A stretch of 32,000 bases of DNA from Candidatus Heimdallarchaeota archaeon (GTDB lineage: Archaea > Asgardarchaeota > Heimdallarchaeia > Heimdallarchaeales > Kariarchaeaceae). Both the position numbers and the translations under genes were made by a program. The notes under the pieces were generated by a model. That model did not search any database, was not told the DNA's origin, and was given only the letters and a program-made list of their open reading frames with translations. Where the stretch lies: positions 630,001 to 662,000 of the forward strand of contig JASBSB010000001.1 in assembly GCA_030149205.1 (NCBI GenBank), given 5' to 3'. Below, one piece after another: positions 24,068-31,503 of this stretch (within the stretch, counting starts at the first letter, position 1; the number at the start of each line of letters is the position of its first letter).

Positions 24068-24793
24068 TTAGCTATTAGAAGCATAAAGACTGTAGGTGTT
24101 TACTAATTCTAAGGGCAAAGTTTCCTTAATTTTCATGGATATGCACTCAGACTGGTCATACAGAAACACATTTTCAAATTTCTCCCGAAATACAACTTCT
24201 TTAATAAGTTCTGCTAAAATGGTTCCCTCCTTCATGCTTGGAAGCACCGAAAAGGAAAATAAGAGTAATGTATCGTTGATTTTAACCGATAACATTGAAC
24301 AATAGACATTTTCATTAAAATCCTCAATTATCCAATATTTTGAGGGAAATAAATGTAAAACTGCTCTGGGAATCTTTTGGAACTCTAACCTATCCTCTCT
24401 GGAAATATTGTTATAATCTGAAATCAGGTTAATTTGCTCATAAACCCTTTGGGATGAGTGAGATTTTGAATCATATGAGAAAAAATTGAAATTAAATCCA
24501 TCCGCAGGTAAACCTATTTCTCCAGTTAGATGGTAAATTGAAAATTTGCTTGATAATTGTTTTAAATTTCTAGGATTGGTTGATTCGTTGTCAATGAAGA
24601 GATCAAAATTTAGTTCAACATCTGTCTCTTTGACTTGAGGGGAAACGATTACAAAATCTGAAGGGAGTGTCTTCATTTGGTTCGAGTGATAAAAGTGAAA
24701 CCCACTGGGTAATTCTTCAAAGTGAAGGTTGGTCATTGCTTCACCAATTGATTTGTAAAAATTTTTTAAGAGTTCAAAACCCTGTTCCTTCAA
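24068..24793 (-). CDS. Hypothetical protein, possibly a degenerate GNAT fold at the C-terminus
   Basis: Long ORF in an otherwise empty interval. FSVLPSMKEGTILAELIKE weakly resembles GNAT motif A. Confidence 0.45.
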   Translation of the reverse strand: MKEQGFELLKNFYKSIGEAMTNLHFEELPSGFHFYHSNQMKTLPSDFVIVSPQVKETDVELNFDLFIDNESTNPRNLKQLSSKFSIYHLTGEIGLPADGFNFNFFSYDSKSHSSQRVYEQINLISDYNNISREDRLEFQKIPRAVLHLFPSKYWIIEDFNENVYCSMLSVKINDTLLLFSFSVLPSMKEGTILAELIKEVVFREKFENVFLYDQSECISMKIKETLPLELVNTYSLYASNS

Positions 24794-24902: not shown

Positions 24903-25589
24903 GTGGACAAGGTGAATATCCCAGAGTGGTTAAATGAATTGGATACACATTCCACAAACAGATTCATTAATATCTTACAAGAATTTAACAGTAGCAAATT
25001 AGATTTTGATGATTTCAAATCAAAAAATATTAACGATTTTCTAAAACTAAAGTTACCAACAAGTTTATCCTTAAATGAATTGCTTATTCTTGCTCTTAAA
25101 TCAGGGATTGAACCAGAACAGGTGGTTAAGCTAATTTCATGGAAGCAGTTCGAAAGTTTAACTGCAGCTATATTAAATTATCAAGGATGGGAAACACAAC
25201 AAAACATTAAGTTCAGATCACCCACCAAATTTAATTCCTGGTTGGAGTTTGATGTCATAGCTTCAAAGGTTGATTATGAAACAGTGTTATTTATTGATTG
25301 TAAACGCTACCAATCACCAGCACCGAATATTGTAAATAAGGCAGCAACCAGACAAAAAGAAAGGCTTGGGTTACTTTTTACCAAACTTCCAGAATTAAGT
25401 TATGACTCTAGGTTTTACTGGCTTAAGAAAAAAAAAGGGAGATTACTACCCCTGCTATTAACATGGAGAGATCATCAAATAAAATTGAAAGATGATGTAG
25501 CAATAGTTCCAATCGCTAAATTCTCTGATTTTTTGAAAAATTTACAAAAGTATCGTGAATTTCTTTACCAAATCACATTTGATCTGTAA
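24903..25589 (+). CDS. Mrr-like PD-(D/E)xK nuclease-fold protein
   Basis: ISWKQFESLTAAIL...GW, LEFDVIA and LFIDCKRY form the E...D...(D/E)xK pattern. Confidence 0.72.
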   Translation: MDKVNIPEWLNELDTHSTNRFINILQEFNSSKLDFDDFKSKNINDFLKLKLPTSLSLNELLILALKSGIEPEQVVKLISWKQFESLTAAILNYQGWETQQNIKFRSPTKFNSWLEFDVIASKVDYETVLFIDCKRYQSPAPNIVNKAATRQKERLGLLFTKLPELSYDSRFYWLKKKKGRLLPLLLTWRDHQIKLKDDVAIVPIAKFSDFLKNLQKYREFLYQITFDL

Positions 25590-26304
25590 GAATTGTGACT
25601 GTGGTGTCAGATCCAATTCCATCGAGCTTGACAAGTCCCTCCTTTTCGAGTAGCTTTACGAGGTCTTGACTAGCGGCAAAGTTTCTTCCAGATTGCATTG
25701 CTAGCTTTCTCACGGAAATTGTTTTCTGATCATTCAAAACTCTCCAGAGGTCATACACATCAGCGGCTTCTGCAAGGACTCTTAAGACTTTAGCCTCTTT
25801 CTTTACAGAGTCAAGGTCTCCAGCCTCACTCAGTTTCATTTTTTGTTCTTCTAATTCAGCTTTGAGACTCTGGTTTTCTGAACGCAATGTTGCAAGTTGC
25901 TCGGTAAGAGAGGATACCTGTGCAGCTTTTTGTTTGTATTCTTCCAGTTCAGCCTTTTTTGCCTCGATTTGCCTGGTTAGATCATCAGTTTTGGATTTAC
26001 TTGAAGAGTTTTCAGCAGAAAGGGATTGCAATTTTTCTTCAAGGTTGGAAACTTTATCATTTAATGCTTTCATCTGAGCAACTTTTGCTTCTAATTCTGC
26101 AGTAGATGCTTTCAACGAAGAAACCTCAGATTCTTTGGCGGACAATTGAGCATTCAGTTCAGAAACCTTGGCATTTCCCGCAGCTAGTTTTTCTTCTAAA
26201 TTTGAAAGCTTTTGCTTAAGTTGTGACAATTCTTCTTCTTTAAGCTTAAGTTGTTCGGAATTATTGTTCATATCTGTAGATGGTTTTGGAACCTCTTCTG
26301 CCAT
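25573..26304 (-). CDS. Coiled-coil protein with a C-terminal winged helix
   Basis: About 160 aa of heptads (SNLEEKL occurs twice), then LWRVLNDQKTISVRKLAMQSG...LVKLLEKEGLVKL. Confidence 0.7.
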   Translation of the reverse strand: MAEEVPKPSTDMNNNSEQLKLKEEELSQLKQKLSNLEEKLAAGNAKVSELNAQLSAKESEVSSLKASTAELEAKVAQMKALNDKVSNLEEKLQSLSAENSSSKSKTDDLTRQIEAKKAELEEYKQKAAQVSSLTEQLATLRSENQSLKAELEEQKMKLSEAGDLDSVKKEAKVLRVLAEAADVYDLWRVLNDQKTISVRKLAMQSGRNFAASQDLVKLLEKEGLVKLDGIGSDTTVTILTDQM

Positions 26305-26388: not shown

Positions 26389-26865
26389 TCATAACAGAAG
26401 CTCTAACGCGAAATCAGCTGTGTTTTTTAATGAAACTGAGAATCCGGGGTCAAACCCTATGATTCCTGTCTTTAACCCTTTTTCTTTGACCTTCATTAAA
26501 ATGGGACCGCATCGTGCATCACGACTTGCAATCATAAGTACATCACAATTTTTTCTCTTGGCTATGTTCAAGGAAAGTAAACCAATTTCAAGATAAACAT
26601 CCTCTGTTGTATGAATCGGTGTATAGCCACTGTTTATAACTGCTTGAATTAAACTTTCACTGGCAAACCTGTTTAAGACAACATATTTTTCTGATAATGA
26701 CCCAAGTTTTGAGGCTGCTTCCTCAATATCTTCCAATTTAATTTGGTTAAATTTGGTTTTACGAAGCATATTTGGGCCATCAATAATTATACTGACAGTA
26801 GATTGCCTTTTAAAAAAATTTTTGAGAACCTTTAATTTCCCGGATGAGATAGGTAAATTACTCAC
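26389..26865 (-). CDS. NYN/PIN-like domain protein (TIGR00288-like)
   Basis: IIIDGPNMLRK, YVVLN, AVINSGY.P, ASRDA, KEKGLKT..IG.DPGFS.SLKNTAD. Confidence 0.8.
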   Translation of the reverse strand: MSNLPISSGKLKVLKNFFKRQSTVSIIIDGPNMLRKTKFNQIKLEDIEEAASKLGSLSEKYVVLNRFASESLIQAVINSGYTPIHTTEDVYLEIGLLSLNIAKRKNCDVLMIASRDARCGPILMKVKEKGLKTGIIGFDPGFSVSLKNTADFALELLL

Positions 26866-26875
26866 TCTGCTTCCT

Positions 26876-28378
26876 CTATACCAATTTAGAAAGACTTATG
26901 GGTGAGCCTTTCTTATGAGAAGATTTAGCAAAAAATAGGTTGCCATCACGTCTCAATTCAACCGCACCGAAATCTGCCAACTCAACCAAAGATCTATGGA
27001 TTAGTTGCTCAGGAAGGTTTAAAGAGGTGCTTAAGTCAGGTAAATGAATTTCTACATCCATGCTGTCTAAAATAGCCAAAATCCGAAACTTTGGATCGTA
27101 AACAATTAAACTTTCAAAATATTCTAAGACCTCTTTATCTTCATTTATCCTGGACTCTGCTAGTTTTAGCCTTGATTCTAACTCAGTCTTTTCATCCGAA
27201 CTCATTGTAACCATCCCTTGATATTGTTCAAGTGCCTGTTCTTTCTCTGAAAGTGTTGTCTTGAGTTCTTGAAACTCCTTATCTAAGGTATTAAATTCTT
27301 CTTCCCGCAGATTGGCTGAGTCTTGAAGATCAAGAAATGTTTGCTCCAAAGATTTATATTTTTCTGTCAGAGTACTTAATCTTCCTTCATAATCTGATTT
27401 AAGTGATTCTATGGCTTCCATGTTTTGATTTAATTTGTCTTCATATTCCTTATGTAACAATGATTTCTCTTCAAGGAGTAATTTTGTTTTTCTGAGTTCC
27501 TCATTTCTGTTGACTTCATCAGATTTCAGCTTAAATAACTCATTTTGAGCCTCGTCATATTTGGATTGAAGTTCTTTGATAAAATCGTTAGACACTGTGG
27601 ATTGCTTTGCTAAGAGCTCCCTCTCTCTCTCTGTTAGTTCTTTGATTTGTTGCTTTAATTTATCTAGTTCTCTTAATTGCTCAAGGAGTTGACTATTTTC
27701 CTTTCGAAGTTTTTGAATTAAAACATCACGATTTGCAAGTACTTCCTGTAGTTCTTCTACATCTGTTGAGGATTTCATCATTGTGTTCCCTATCAAATTG
27801 ACTTGGTTTTCCATATCCACCAATTTGTTTTGTAGCTCAGTGTTCTCTTGTTCTTTTTCTCTTACTTTGTTTCTCAAAGTTTGAATTTCATGTTGCAGCT
27901 CCATATTATCAGATTGTGAATCAGAATAAGTCTCAGTCTGGTTGAGAAGATTTTCCTCGTATTCCTTCAATTTCAATGTTGCCTCTGAAGACTCAAGTTG
28001 CAATTCTTGTAGTCTCTGAAACTCTCGGATCACTTCATCTTGGACTATACCAGAAGAGGCTATTGAATTTTCAATTCCTGTTCTCATATAATGTGAAGCG
28101 ATGGTAACCAATCGTACATGAATTGAGTTTTTAAAGAATTTTAGGAAAAACTCTTTGTAGTTGTTCGTTAGCATGTCAATGTCTGAGGGAGTGTAAGAAG
28201 CCTTACCTAGCTGAGTCATCTCTGATTTTATCTCTTCTGATTTTTCTCGGATGATCTGTTCAAAATACCCTTTCTCGTTCTGCATCTGGTTCAGAAATTC
28301 GATAACTGCATCCTTAATTACAGAAACTTGAGAAGCCTCTGTTGGAAGATTACTTTCCATTACAAATTCAAATAGCAA
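26876..28378 (-). CDS. Long coiled-coil protein with a C-terminal winged helix
   Basis: About 300 aa of E/K/L/Q-rich heptads, then DPKFRILAIL...LPDLSTSLNLPEQLIHRSLVELADFGAVEL. Confidence 0.72.
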   Translation of the reverse strand: MLFEFVMESNLPTEASQVSVIKDAVIEFLNQMQNEKGYFEQIIREKSEEIKSEMTQLGKASYTPSDIDMLTNNYKEFFLKFFKNSIHVRLVTIASHYMRTGIENSIASSGIVQDEVIREFQRLQELQLESSEATLKLKEYEENLLNQTETYSDSQSDNMELQHEIQTLRNKVREKEQENTELQNKLVDMENQVNLIGNTMMKSSTDVEELQEVLANRDVLIQKLRKENSQLLEQLRELDKLKQQIKELTERERELLAKQSTVSNDFIKELQSKYDEAQNELFKLKSDEVNRNEELRKTKLLLEEKSLLHKEYEDKLNQNMEAIESLKSDYEGRLSTLTEKYKSLEQTFLDLQDSANLREEEFNTLDKEFQELKTTLSEKEQALEQYQGMVTMSSDEKTELESRLKLAESRINEDKEVLEYFESLIVYDPKFRILAILDSMDVEIHLPDLSTSLNLPEQLIHRSLVELADFGAVELRRDGNLFFAKSSHKKGSPISLSKLV

Positions 28379-30308: not shown

Positions 30309-30896
30309 TCAAATTCTATATCTTGCATGCAAGAATAAACGAAAAGTTTTGCTTTTGTTATTAACATATTTTACAAATCTTTGATACCCTGATAATGTAT
30401 GAACAATACCTACGCTATTTGGGGCAATAGGTAGGGTGTAATACTGATCAGAACCCAAATAATAGGTGATCTGGCCTCCTGCAGTTACATCATCCCAACC
30501 TTCAGTGAAATCAATAAAGACATCAAGTCCTTCCTCCAGATTTGCATCATCGTGCATTACAGTGTAATCTTTCCATTCATATTTCGAGACTGTAAGTTTG
30601 TTTAATTTAAGCCCTTCGATTTCTGTGACTCCTTCAAGGAAAAGTAGTAATTCCTTAGATTCAAATAAATTTGTTAACCGTTCTGAAATTTTATCCTGTG
30701 AAGAATATGAATACATTATGGGATTTATAACTTTTACAAAGCTTCCATCAAGAATCTCTTTCCTCAACTCTTGATACATCTCTGGTTTTAAAAATTCAAA
30801 AAGAACAACACTCTGAAAAACATTGTCAGACTTGAATTGTTCAGTTAAGACAGGAAAGTTGTCCACTATTGTATATACATCATTCATCAGATTCAT
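30309..30896 (-). CDS. OGFOD1/Ofd1 C-terminal degenerate oxygenase domain (CTDD)-like protein
   Basis: EFLKPE, LFESKELLLFL, YTVMHDD, LDVFIDFTEGWD..AGGQITY and NSVGIV..RFVKYVNNKS parallel the OGFOD1 C-terminal domain as recalled. The distal His is absent. Confidence 0.75.
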   Translation of the reverse strand: MNLMNDVYTIVDNFPVLTEQFKSDNVFQSVVLFEFLKPEMYQELRKEILDGSFVKVINPIMYSYSSQDKISERLTNLFESKELLLFLEGVTEIEGLKLNKLTVSKYEWKDYTVMHDDANLEEGLDVFIDFTEGWDDVTAGGQITYYLGSDQYYTLPIAPNSVGIVHTLSGYQRFVKYVNNKSKTFRLFLHARYRI

Positions 30897-31503
30897 ATAA
30901 CCACCCTGTTAAACTGACTCTAAAGTATTCACCCACCACTTCCTCAACTTCATGGAATGAGGTCGGGGTAACTTCAAAAAACATCAACCGATTGTATCGC
31001 GGTATGATTTTCTTTGTAACTATAGTTGGATAAGAATGCTCAGACTCAAATAAATTTAAAGATCCTCCAATTTTTTCTTTTAGATCGGTTAAGTAAAAAA
31101 TGAATGCAATTTTCCTCTCTGGTAACTTGTCATCATGACATATAAGATAGTCCGTGTCTGAATAGATATTTCCCGTCACATCCACCTTTTTCCGACTTAG
31201 TTTACACGAAGTTATTGCTTCAATAAAACTTTGAAATTCTTCAGATAGTAAAAAAGAAACAAACTCTCGAAATATTGGATTAGAGCTTTCTGAAAGGTCA
31301 CTTGTTTGTATAAATTGGAAGAGGTCAGCCTCTTTCAGAAAAAATTCTTCATCCTCCAACGCAGAAATGACCTCGTCAAGTTTCTCTTCTATGAAGAACT
31401 CATCAATTGCTAGATGAGGAAATGGTGAATTTTGCTTGTACTCCTCCTGGTACTCATCAACCTTCAGTTTGTGTGATGGATTGAATAGATCATTCACAAA
31501 CAT
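30880..31503 (-). CDS. 2OG-Fe(II) oxygenase, OGFOD1/Tpa1/Ofd1 catalytic-domain-like prolyl hydroxylase
   Basis: PFPHLAIDEF, DLFQFIQTSDL, YLICHDD (HxD), RKIAFIFYL, GGSLNLF, NRLMFFEVTPTSFHEVEEV (distal His) and RVSLTGW (RxS). Confidence 0.88.
   Translation of the reverse strand: MFVNDLFNPSHKLKVDEYQEEYKQNSPFPHLAIDEFFIEEKLDEVISALEDEEFFLKEADLFQFIQTSDLSESSNPIFREFVSFLLSEEFQSFIEAITSCKLSRKKVDVTGNIYSDTDYLICHDDKLPERKIAFIFYLTDLKEKIGGSLNLFESEHSYPTIVTKKIIPRYNRLMFFEVTPTSFHEVEEVVGEYFRVSLTGWLYESDE

What the first reader, a model, noticed from the sequence alone, without database searches (positions are those of the whole stretch)
30309..31503. Split, two-gene version of the eukaryotic ribosomal prolyl hydroxylase OGFOD1/Tpa1/Ofd1 in an archaeon
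The upstream gene matches the catalytic domain with all ligands (CHDD...SFHEV...RVS). The downstream gene matches the degenerate C-terminal domain (HDD kept, distal His replaced by FVK), in the same order as in the eukaryotic fusion. Segment-by-segment similarity to human OGFOD1 as recalled: CHDDKLPERKIAFIFYL vs CHDDELEGRRIAFILYL; FFEVTPTSFHEV vs FFEVSPVSFHQV; EFLKPE vs EFLKPE; FVKYVNNKS vs FVKHINHRS. The junction looks natural: a 17-nt overlap, ATG 30896 preceded by GGGTGG, and an alternative ATGAATGA coupling at 30887. The eukaryotic enzyme needs O2 and hydroxylates a Pro in uS12, so this would imply O2 exposure and a pre-fusion ancestor of a eukaryotic translation/oxygen-sensing enzyme (inference).
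Basis: partly seen in the sequence, partly recalled or inferred. Interest (0 to 1): 0.9.

Follow-up and report, generated by a model that had tools for sequence, protein, structure and literature searches.

The report
Two-gene archaeal OGFOD1-type prolyl hydroxylase
A Heimdall-group (Asgard) archaeon that carries oxygen-respiration genes encodes, as two overlapping genes, both halves of the oxygen-dependent enzyme that hydroxylates ribosomal protein uS12 in eukaryotes. The literature calls this family eukaryote-only, but the pair is far commoner in tiny DPANN archaea, and a direct Asgard-to-eukaryote descent is not shown.

Summary
Gene 1 (207 aa) is the catalytic Fe(II)/2-oxoglutarate domain of OGFOD1/Tpa1 (E 4e-29 to human OGFOD1, all ligands present). 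Gene 2 (195 aa) is the non-catalytic Ofd1_CTDD domain (44 bits against a cut-off of 27).

The 17-nt overlap is real. All 60 archaeal loci examined keep two genes, with three different frame relations, so it is neither a sequencing error nor a programmed frameshift. A paralog-rooted tree makes gene 1 orthologous to eukaryotic N-domains and gene 2 to C-domains (100/100). A heterodimer is predicted (0.81 against best control 0.44).

The genome is archaeal, its relatives are labelled Heimdallarchaeota/Kariarchaeota, and it carries three heme-copper oxidase genes.

The evolutionary reading is only partly supported:
- The pair occurs in 6 of 400 Asgard genomes (2 genera of one oxidase-bearing family) but in 73 of 401 sampled DPANN genomes.
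- The best trees join the Asgard copies to a Woesearchaeota-type DPANN subgroup, and eukaryotes to three other DPANN genomes.
- AU tests do not reject an Asgard+eukaryote grouping (p 0.20-0.24).

The uS12 substrate is inferred, not shown. This scan has reported the same split family before on other, mostly DPANN, DNA. None of the earlier notes I retrieved mentions an Asgard genome.

The parts
30880..31503 (-). Gene 1 (207 aa plus stop): catalytic Fe(II)/2-oxoglutarate double-stranded beta-helix subunit, orthologous to the N-terminal domain of OGFOD1/Tpa1/Ofd1.
   Evidence: PF13661 96.9 bits, PF13640 54.2 bits. PDB 4nhx E 4.4e-29, Tpa1 E 6e-21. Groups with eukaryotic N-domains at 100/100 in the paralog-rooted tree.
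31129..31137 (-). Codons for His123-Asp124-Asp125 (the HxD iron ligands, within CHDD).
   Evidence: Aligned to the CHDD of human OGFOD1. H123 and D125 are invariant in the five Heimdall-family sequences. Codons read directly.
30952..30954 (-). Codon for His184, the distal iron ligand (in SFHEV).
   Evidence: Aligned to SFHQV of OGFOD1; invariant in alignment A2.
30919..30921 (-). Codon for Arg195 (RVS), the 2-oxoglutarate C5-carboxylate binding arginine.
   Evidence: Aligned to RLS of OGFOD1; invariant in A2.
30309..30896 (-). Gene 2 (195 aa plus stop): non-catalytic second double-stranded beta-helix subunit, orthologous to the C-terminal domain (Ofd1_CTDD) of OGFOD1/Tpa1/Ofd1. The distal His is replaced by Phe174 in the invariant FxKYVN strand.
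   Evidence: PF10637 44.1 bits against cut-off 27. 4nhx C-domain E 1.3e-10. Invariant F174 K176 Y177 V178 N179. Groups with eukaryotic C-domains at 100/100.
30880..30906 (-). Translational-coupling junction. The Gly-Trp codons GGGTGG (30906-30901) act as a Shine-Dalgarno-like site. The gene 2 ATG is at 30896-30894, an alternative ATG at 30887-30885, and the gene 1 stop TGA at 30882-30880. The overlap is 17 nt, with gene 2 in the +1 frame.
   Evidence: Sequence. The 16S rRNA 3' end is ...GGATCACCTCCT. GGNTGG, four further bases, then ATG recurs in most of the 60 archaeal loci, and ATG sits 10 nt after the Gly codon in most.

Best explanation
The two genes form a translationally coupled pair that encodes a two-subunit version of the OGFOD1/Tpa1/Ofd1 protein prolyl hydroxylase.

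Shown:
- Gene 1 has the complete Fe(II) (His123, Asp125, His184) and 2-oxoglutarate (Arg195) site.
- Gene 2 is the orthologue of the eukaryotic non-catalytic C-domain and lacks the distal His.
- The split is the conserved archaeal state.

Predicted: the two proteins form a heterodimer through the same sheet-to-sheet packing that joins the two domains in OGFOD1. The invariant FxKYVN strand of gene 2 lies at that interface.

Inferred from homology only: the heterodimer uses O2 and 2-oxoglutarate to hydroxylate the conserved proline of the KQPNSA loop of ribosomal protein uS12 at the decoding centre.

Evolution: the NTD/CTD duplication predates the split between archaeal and eukaryotic members, and the eukaryotic single-chain enzyme is most simply a fusion of such a pair. 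Gene 2 usually starts in the +1 frame 10 nt after the Gly codon of the terminal Gly-Trp, so a single-base indel there would bring the frames together. The pair is mainly a DPANN family. The Heimdall-family copies, confined to two genera of a family that carries heme-copper oxidases, were probably exchanged laterally with Woesearchaeota-type DPANN rather than being the direct ancestor of the eukaryotic gene.
For: Identity:
- Pfam and PDB matches.
- Ligands invariant.
- Gene 2 motif conservation and loss of the distal His.

Real split:
- All 60 archaeal loci have gene 1 then gene 2 on one strand as separate ORFs, and 57 of 60 overlap.
- By an automatic start call that is ambiguous for some loci, the frame offset is +1 in 49, +2 in 9 and in-frame with a stop in 2.

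Orthology of each half: N and C clades are each 100/100 in the paralog-rooted tree.

Heterodimer:
- Score 0.81 against best control 0.44, a mark reached by 58 of 80 solved complexes and 2 of 110 mismatched pairs.
- The three runs agree in 100% of contacts, and partner pLDDT is 90.
- The interface is chain 1 residues 116-124 and 183-191 with chain 2 residues 109-114 and 174-181. On my assignment of these strands to the minor sheets, this matches the minor-sheet packing described for OGFOD1 (PMC4396695).
- Because OGFOD1 and Tpa1 structures are solved, this pass may reflect likeness rather than independent evidence.

Substrate present: uS12 has GSKQPNSALRK.

O2: three COX1 genes in this genome. 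In the order, COX1 is found in family f1 (10/11) and f4 (2/3) but not in f2 (0/26).

Distribution: 6 of 400 Asgard genomes, against 73 of 401 DPANN genomes.

Trees:
- Asgard clade 98/92.
- Asgard plus 22 DPANN 98/98.
- Eukaryotes plus 3 DPANN 99/97.
- Both halves place Asgard with the same DPANN subgroup.
Against: - No biochemical evidence exists for any archaeal member, so the uS12 target rests only on homology.
- The KQPNSA loop is universal, so its presence does not discriminate.
- uS12 lies on another contig (C2 against C4), and the local neighbours (an M50-type peptidase gene and aconitase-family genes) give no translation link.
- The lateral-transfer reading is not statistically secured. 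AU tests do not reject Asgard+eukaryotes as one group (p 0.234, 0.241, 0.198).
- Many rows have deviant composition.
- The root inside each half is unresolved.
- One fused 426-aa form sits on a prokaryote-like contig, so 'fused means eukaryote' is not absolute.
Confidence: 0.6

Rival explanations
1. Vertical descent. The pair was present in the Heimdall-type ancestor of eukaryotes, was lost from nearly all other Asgard lineages, and was fused on the eukaryotic stem. This locus would then be a surviving pre-fusion form of OGFOD1.
For: AU tests do not reject an Asgard+eukaryote grouping (p 0.198-0.241). The pair sits in the oxidase-bearing Heimdall family, so loss from anaerobic lineages would be expected for an O2-dependent enzyme. 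The shared junction design in all archaea argues that split is ancestral.
Against: - Found in only 2 of 85 Asgard genera and 6 of 400 genomes. Not found in four other COX1-bearing genera of the same family, in genomes 63-94% complete.
- The best trees under two models put Asgard with a DPANN subgroup (98/98, 97/96) and eukaryotes with three other DPANN genomes (99/97). The constrained tree is 14-24 log-likelihood units worse.
- Both domains agree independently.
Confidence: 0.2
2. Same fold and chemistry but a different substrate. The archaeal heterodimer hydroxylates another protein (for example a translation factor) or a small molecule, and uS12 specificity arose only in eukaryotes.
For: No genomic link to uS12 or to translation genes at this locus. 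uS12 is on another contig. Related single-domain prolyl hydroxylases act on other targets, such as the bacterial prolyl hydroxylase PPHD (cited in PMC4396695).
Against: - Both halves are orthologous to the eukaryotic enzyme, including the non-catalytic domain, which Horita et al. consider likely to bind uS12 or other binding partners.
- Gene 1 is far closer to OGFOD1 (E 4e-29) than to EGLN-type hydroxylases (E 0.2 or worse).
- The target loop is present in uS12.
Confidence: 0.3
3. Artefact or recoding. A single OGFOD1-like gene is broken by an assembly frameshift, is a decaying pseudogene, or is a programmed frameshift site that yields a fused protein.
For: Gene 2 lies in the +1 frame with a short overlap, which is what a one-base error in a fused gene would look like in a single genome.
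Against: - The same two-ORF layout occurs in all 60 archaeal loci from independent assemblies, at 23-54% identity to the window.
- Both ORFs are intact, and each gene 2 has its own start.
- There are three different frame relations, including in-frame pairs separated by a stop and a spacer.
- No shared slippery motif is seen apart from the Gly-Trp codons.
- No intact fused form was found in any archaeal genome searched.
Confidence: 0.03

Closest known systems
Human OGFOD1 (PDB 4nhx/4nhy), S. cerevisiae Tpa1 (3kt1, 4nhk), S. pombe Ofd1, Drosophila Sudestada1: uS12/RPS23 prolyl 3-hydroxylases or 3,4-dihydroxylases
   Same: - A catalytic N-terminal double-stranded beta-helix with HxD...H and Arg.
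- A second, non-catalytic beta-helix of the Ofd1_CTDD family, in the same order.
- Each half is orthologous by the paralog-rooted tree.
- The predicted packing of the two halves uses the strands that I assign to the minor sheets, through which the two domains pack in OGFOD1.
   Different: - Two separate, translationally coupled polypeptides instead of one chain with a linker.
- No acidic insert or N-terminal extension, so about 400 aa in total against 540-650.
- Archaeal host, whereas the family is described as 'found only in eukaryotes' (PMC4396695).
- Activity and substrate are untested.
The same two-gene pair in DPANN archaea (Woesearchaeota, Pacearchaeota and Nanoarchaeia MAGs), reported earlier in this scan
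   Same: Same two genes, same order and same junction design (GGNTGG, four further bases, then ATG). Gene 1 is 39-49% identical. The window's pair groups with a Woesearchaeota-type subgroup at 98/98.
   Different: The host is a 3.3-Mb Heimdall-group Asgard genome with heme-copper oxidases, not a roughly 1-Mb DPANN genome. Within Asgard the pair is rare (6 of 400 genomes).
Single-domain prolyl hydroxylases: EGLN/PHD (HIF hydroxylases) and bacterial PPHD (an EF-Tu hydroxylase, from my own knowledge of Scotti et al. 2014)
   Same: Fe(II)/2-oxoglutarate prolyl hydroxylase fold and ligand triad. Horita et al. suggest that the OGFOD1 subfamily branched off from single-domain prolyl hydroxylases of this kind.
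   Different: Only marginal sequence similarity (EGLN1 E 0.2 to 1). They have no partner beta-helix subunit and act on different substrates.
YcfD/RoxA-type bacterial ribosomal oxygenases (uL16 arginyl hydroxylase)
   Same: A prokaryotic 2-oxoglutarate oxygenase that modifies a ribosomal protein, which sets a precedent for O2-dependent ribosome hydroxylation outside eukaryotes (PMC4396695).
   Different: A JmjC-related subfamily with a different residue and ribosomal protein. There was no detectable sequence match here.

Membership tests
OGFOD1/Tpa1/Ofd1 subfamily of prolyl hydroxylases | N-terminal catalytic double-stranded beta-helix with the HxD...H iron triad and the 2-oxoglutarate-binding Arg | tested here: met
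   Gene 1: PF13661 96.9 bits. 4nhx E 4.4e-29 with CHDD, SFHEV and RVS aligned. H123, D125, H184 and R195 are invariant.
OGFOD1/Tpa1/Ofd1 subfamily of prolyl hydroxylases | Second, non-catalytic double-stranded beta-helix of the Ofd1_CTDD family lacking the metal site | tested here: met
   Gene 2: PF10637 44.1 bits against curated cut-off 27. OGFOD1 C-domain E 1.3e-10. The distal His position is an invariant Phe, and the HxD is not conserved among relatives.
OGFOD1/Tpa1/Ofd1 subfamily of prolyl hydroxylases | Each half orthologous (not merely paralogous) to the corresponding eukaryotic domain | tested here: met
   Paralog-rooted tree of 80 rows: all N-domains plus gene 1 form one clade and all C-domains plus gene 2 form the other, each 100/100.
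OGFOD1/Tpa1/Ofd1 subfamily of prolyl hydroxylases | Both domains on one polypeptide joined by a linker | tested here: not met
   There are two ORFs with a 17-nt overlap here, and two ORFs in all 60 archaeal loci. All 16 eukaryotic sequences used are fused.
OGFOD1/Tpa1/Ofd1 subfamily of prolyl hydroxylases | The two beta-helices pack tightly through their minor sheets | tested here: met
   This is a prediction only. Score 0.81 against best control 0.44, a mark reached by 58 of 80 solved complexes and 2 of 110 mismatched pairs. The runs agree in 100% of contacts, and partner pLDDT is 90. The interface strands carry the HxD and distal-His positions of gene 1 and the equivalent strands of gene 2. 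Solved OGFOD1 and Tpa1 structures may drive this result from memory.
OGFOD1/Tpa1/Ofd1 subfamily of prolyl hydroxylases | Hydroxylates the loop proline (human Pro62) of uS12/RPS23 | not testable with these tools
   Only the presence of the substrate motif could be checked. uS12 of this genome has GSKQPNSALRK, and that loop is universal.
OGFOD1/Tpa1/Ofd1 subfamily of prolyl hydroxylases | Eukaryote-restricted distribution, as stated in the structural literature | tested here: not met
   The genome has an archaeal SSU rRNA. The pair is in 6 of 400 Asgard and 73 of 401 DPANN genomes. The statement 'found only in eukaryotes' is in PMC4396695.
EGLN/PHD and PPHD single-domain prolyl 4-hydroxylases | Significant sequence similarity to the PHD catalytic domain, and single-domain architecture | tested here: not met
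   EGLN1 chains match gene 1 only at E 0.2 to 1, and gene 1 always comes with the CTDD partner gene.

The most novel reading that the evidence does not exclude
Eukaryotic OGFOD1 arose by fusion of exactly this kind of archaeal two-gene operon and was inherited vertically from an O2-respiring Heimdall-type ancestor. O2-dependent hydroxylation of the ribosomal decoding centre would then predate eukaryotes, and this locus would be a surviving pre-fusion form.
Probability: 0.18. Interest if true: 0.85.

Novelty: new variant of a known kind. Interest (0 to 1): 0.62.

Why it matters
[quoted passage not shown] The data here show three things:
- The duplication into a catalytic and a non-catalytic half is already present in archaea.
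- The archaeal form is a two-subunit enzyme.
- The eukaryotic protein is most simply a fusion of the two genes.

The pair occurs in a Heimdall-group family that also carries heme-copper oxidases. This ties an O2-dependent, ribosome-directed modification enzyme to the archaeal lineage most discussed as the host of eukaryogenesis, even though the best trees point to exchange with DPANN archaea rather than direct descent.

The finding makes several things directly testable. One is whether archaeal ribosomes carry hydroxyproline in uS12. Another is what the non-catalytic half does when it is a separate protein. A third is when oxygen-linked control of decoding arose.

Tried and rejected
- A word-indexed homologue search with gene 2 returned only the window's own protein. 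I replaced it with an exhaustive profile search.
- The AU test on the 77-row tree under the site-heterogeneous model did not finish in two 300-s runs. I replaced it with a 40-row test under the same model and a 77-row test under LG+G4.
I obtained handles first.
- Sequencing error, pseudogene and programmed frameshift are rejected because the split is conserved, with three different frame relations, in 60 loci.
- A bacterial origin is not supported. The one 'bacterium'-labelled MAG (L018) has a 1.1-Mb genome and groups inside DPANN sequences.
- A gene-neighbourhood link to translation was not seen. The flanking genes are M50-peptidase-like and aconitase-family, and uS12 is on another contig.
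- Literature searches for OGFOD1, Tpa1, Ofd1 or prolyl hydroxylase together with archaea, Asgard, Heimdallarchaeota or DPANN found no report of archaeal members.
- I did not scan for promoters, because the tool covers sigma-70-type sites only.

Full report
**Observation**

The window holds two minus-strand ORFs, 30880-31503 (207 aa) and 30309-30896 (195 aa), which overlap by 17 nt. Read on the minus strand, the junction is GGGTGG (30906-30901), then TTAT, then the gene 2 ATG (30896-30894). A second ATG at 30887 overlaps the gene 1 stop TGA (30882-30880) as ATGAATGA.

**Identity of the two genes**

- Gene 1 matches 2OG-FeII_Oxy_4 (PF13661, 96.9 bits) and 2OG-FeII_Oxy_3 (54.2 bits).
- Among solved structures its best match is human OGFOD1 (4nhx, E 4.4e-29), followed by yeast Tpa1 (E 6e-21). 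EGLN-type hydroxylases reach only E 0.2 to 1.
- The alignment puts CHDD, SFHEV and RVS on the OGFOD1 iron and 2-oxoglutarate ligands. H123, D125, H184 and R195 are invariant among the Heimdall-family homologues.
- Gene 2 passes the curated threshold of Ofd1_CTDD (PF10637, 44.1 bits against 27) and matches the C-terminal domain of OGFOD1 (E 1.3e-10).
- In gene 2 the distal-His position is an invariant Phe, and the HxD is not conserved among relatives. It is therefore non-catalytic, like the eukaryotic C-domain.

**The organism**

- The assembly is 3.3 Mb in 12 contigs and 93.5% complete. Its SSU rRNA is best matched by the archaeal model (1198 bits).
- Three same-genus genomes and one same-family genome are sequence-identical, at this locus, to public MAG contigs. 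Those are titled uncultured archaeon, Candidatus Heimdallarchaeota (two) and Candidatus Kariarchaeota.
- The genome has three heme-copper oxidase subunit I genes.
- Within its order, this oxidase is found in the window's family (10 of 11 other genomes) and one other family (2 of 3). It is not found in the largest family (0 of 26).
- O2 exposure is therefore plausible on independent grounds.

**The split is real and general**

I examined 60 non-redundant archaeal loci:
- 6 from the Heimdall family
- 14 MAG loci with public titles, most of them labelled as DPANN groups
- 40 further genomes from the same DPANN phylum

All 60 have gene 1 followed by gene 2 on the same strand as separate ORFs, and 57 overlap.

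In most loci gene 2 starts at an ATG exactly 10 nt after the first base of the Gly codon of the terminal Gly-Trp of gene 1 (GGNTGG, four further bases, then ATG). By an automatic start call that is ambiguous for some loci, the frame offset is:
- +1 in 49 loci
- +2 in 9 loci
- 0 in 2 loci, with a stop and a spacer

Three frame relations, each with its own stop and start, exclude assembly error. They also argue against programmed frameshifting.

The Gly-Trp codons pair with the 3' end of this genome's 16S rRNA (GGATCACCTCCT) if two G-U pairs are allowed. The design therefore looks like classical translational coupling.

**Orthology and heterodimer**

The profiles of the two genes detect each other weakly, as expected for an old duplication. 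A tree of 40 N-halves and 40 C-halves separates them into two clades, each 100/100. Eukaryotic N-domains fall with gene 1 and eukaryotic C-domains with gene 2. The duplication therefore predates the divergence of the archaeal and eukaryotic members.

The complex predictor supports binding of gene 2 to gene 1:
- The score is 0.81 against a best control of 0.44, a mark reached by 58 of 80 solved complexes and 2 of 110 mismatched pairs.
- The runs agree in 100% of contacts, and partner pLDDT is 90.
- The interface comprises the strands carrying the HxD and distal-His positions of gene 1, and the equivalent strands of gene 2, including the invariant FxKYVN motif.
- On my assignment of these strands to the minor sheets, this corresponds to the minor-sheet packing described for OGFOD1 (PMC4396695).
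- Because OGFOD1 and Tpa1 are solved, this pass may reflect memory of those structures.

**Distribution**

- An exhaustive profile search with gene 2 found 1225 cluster representatives (698 at E up to 1e-10).
- About 143 of the best 150 are stand-alone proteins of 150-250 aa.
- Six of the seven long, fused ones carry eukaryotic or eukaryote-collection labels or Tpa1-like annotations (Basidiobolus, Rozella, Balamuthia, EukProt, JGI entries).
- In the Asgard phylum the pair was found in 6 of 400 genomes, all in two genera of the window's family. It was not found in four other genera of that family, whose genomes are 63-94% complete.
- In the phylum of a Woesearchaeota genome it was found in 73 of 401 evenly sampled genomes.

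**Phylogeny**

The tree is a concatenated N+C tree of 77 rows and 399 columns under LG+C20+F+G4 PMSF.
- The six Asgard rows form a clade (98/92) that joins 22 DPANN rows of a Woesearchaeota-type subgroup (98/98).
- The 16 eukaryotes plus one unlabelled fused protein form a clade (100/98). It is sister to three DPANN genomes (99/97).
- LG+G4 gives the same picture.
- Each half separately places Asgard with the same DPANN subgroup.

In the best trees, whatever the root, Asgard and eukaryotes are not sisters. However, AU tests do not reject holding them together:
- p 0.234 (40 rows, LG+G4)
- p 0.241 (40 rows, PMSF)
- p 0.198 (77 rows, LG+G4)

I named the tested group after seeing the tree. Many rows have deviant composition. 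My reading is that lateral exchange between DPANN and the Heimdall family is favoured, at roughly 3 to 1, over direct descent to eukaryotes, but the question is not settled.

The three DPANN genomes nearest the eukaryotes are also split. One of them (L068) has the usual overlap design with one extra codon. This makes a split ancestor with a derived eukaryotic fusion the simpler reading. A one-base indel just after the gene 2 start would join the frames.

**Function**

- Shown: a complete oxygenase site in gene 1, a degenerate partner in gene 2, conserved coupling, and the target motif in this genome's uS12 (GSKQPNSALRK).
- Inferred: O2- and 2-oxoglutarate-dependent hydroxylation of that proline, as OGFOD1 does at Pro62 of RPS23 (PMC4396695).
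- Nothing at the locus links it to translation. The neighbours are an M50-type peptidase gene and aconitase-family genes, and uS12 is on another contig.
- I put the uS12 assignment at about one half.

**Novelty**

Horita et al. [quoted passage not shown] Six full-text searches found no paper that links the family to archaea, Asgard or DPANN.

This scan has already reported the split archaeal pair on other DNA, in at least 22 genomes, mostly DPANN. None of the notes I retrieved mentions an Asgard genome.

What this window adds:
- The Heimdall-family occurrence and its restriction to an oxidase-bearing family.
- The paralog-rooted orthology of each half.
- The explicit test of the Asgard-eukaryote relationship.

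I class it as a new variant of a known kind.

Noticed in passing
L078:8001-9281: A fused 426-aa OGFOD1-like protein (P0070, with both domains in one chain) lies on a densely packed, prokaryote-like 23-kb contig. Its neighbours include DsbD, AhpC/peroxiredoxin, radical SAM and glycosyltransferase genes. It groups inside the eukaryotic clade (93/81 with a EukProt sequence). This may be a eukaryote-to-prokaryote transfer or a prokaryotic fusion.
   Followed up: partly
L068, L055, L076 (G754:C1, G781:C1, G596:C2): The split pairs of three DPANN genomes (1.2-1.8 Mb, two on megabase contigs) are the sister group of all eukaryotic OGFOD1 sequences (99/97). Their taxonomy is unknown to me, and two have deviant amino-acid composition.
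   Followed up: partly
L015, L016, L018: MAGs titled 'uncultured Methanosarcinales archaeon' and 'bacterium' carry the pair. The two whose genome size I looked up (L015, L018) are 1.1-1.4 Mb, and all three group among DPANN sequences. One (G401) was drawn as a member of the same phylum as a Woesearchaeota genome, so the labels look wrong.
   Followed up: partly
window 30885-30896: The public gene call for gene 2 (P0001, 192 aa) starts at the second ATG (30887). The start conserved across most of the 60 loci corresponds to the first ATG (30896), which gives 195 aa.
   Followed up: yes
G000 and its order (genome-wide): Heme-copper oxidase subunit I is found in the window's family (10 of 11 other genomes) and one other family (2 of 3), but in none of 26 genomes of the largest family of the order. 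This is a sharp split in aerobic potential within the order.
   Followed up: partly
window 26876-28378 (-), 24068-24793 (-), 24903-25589 (+): Three sizeable ORFs (500, 241 and 228 aa) have no Pfam match at E up to 1e-5.
   Followed up: no
window 25573-26304 (-): A 243-aa coiled-coil protein has weak, sub-threshold matches to the crescentin rod and CENP-F leucine-zipper families and a marginal match to TolA_bind_tri. It sits next to an NYN-domain protein (26389-26865).
   Followed up: no
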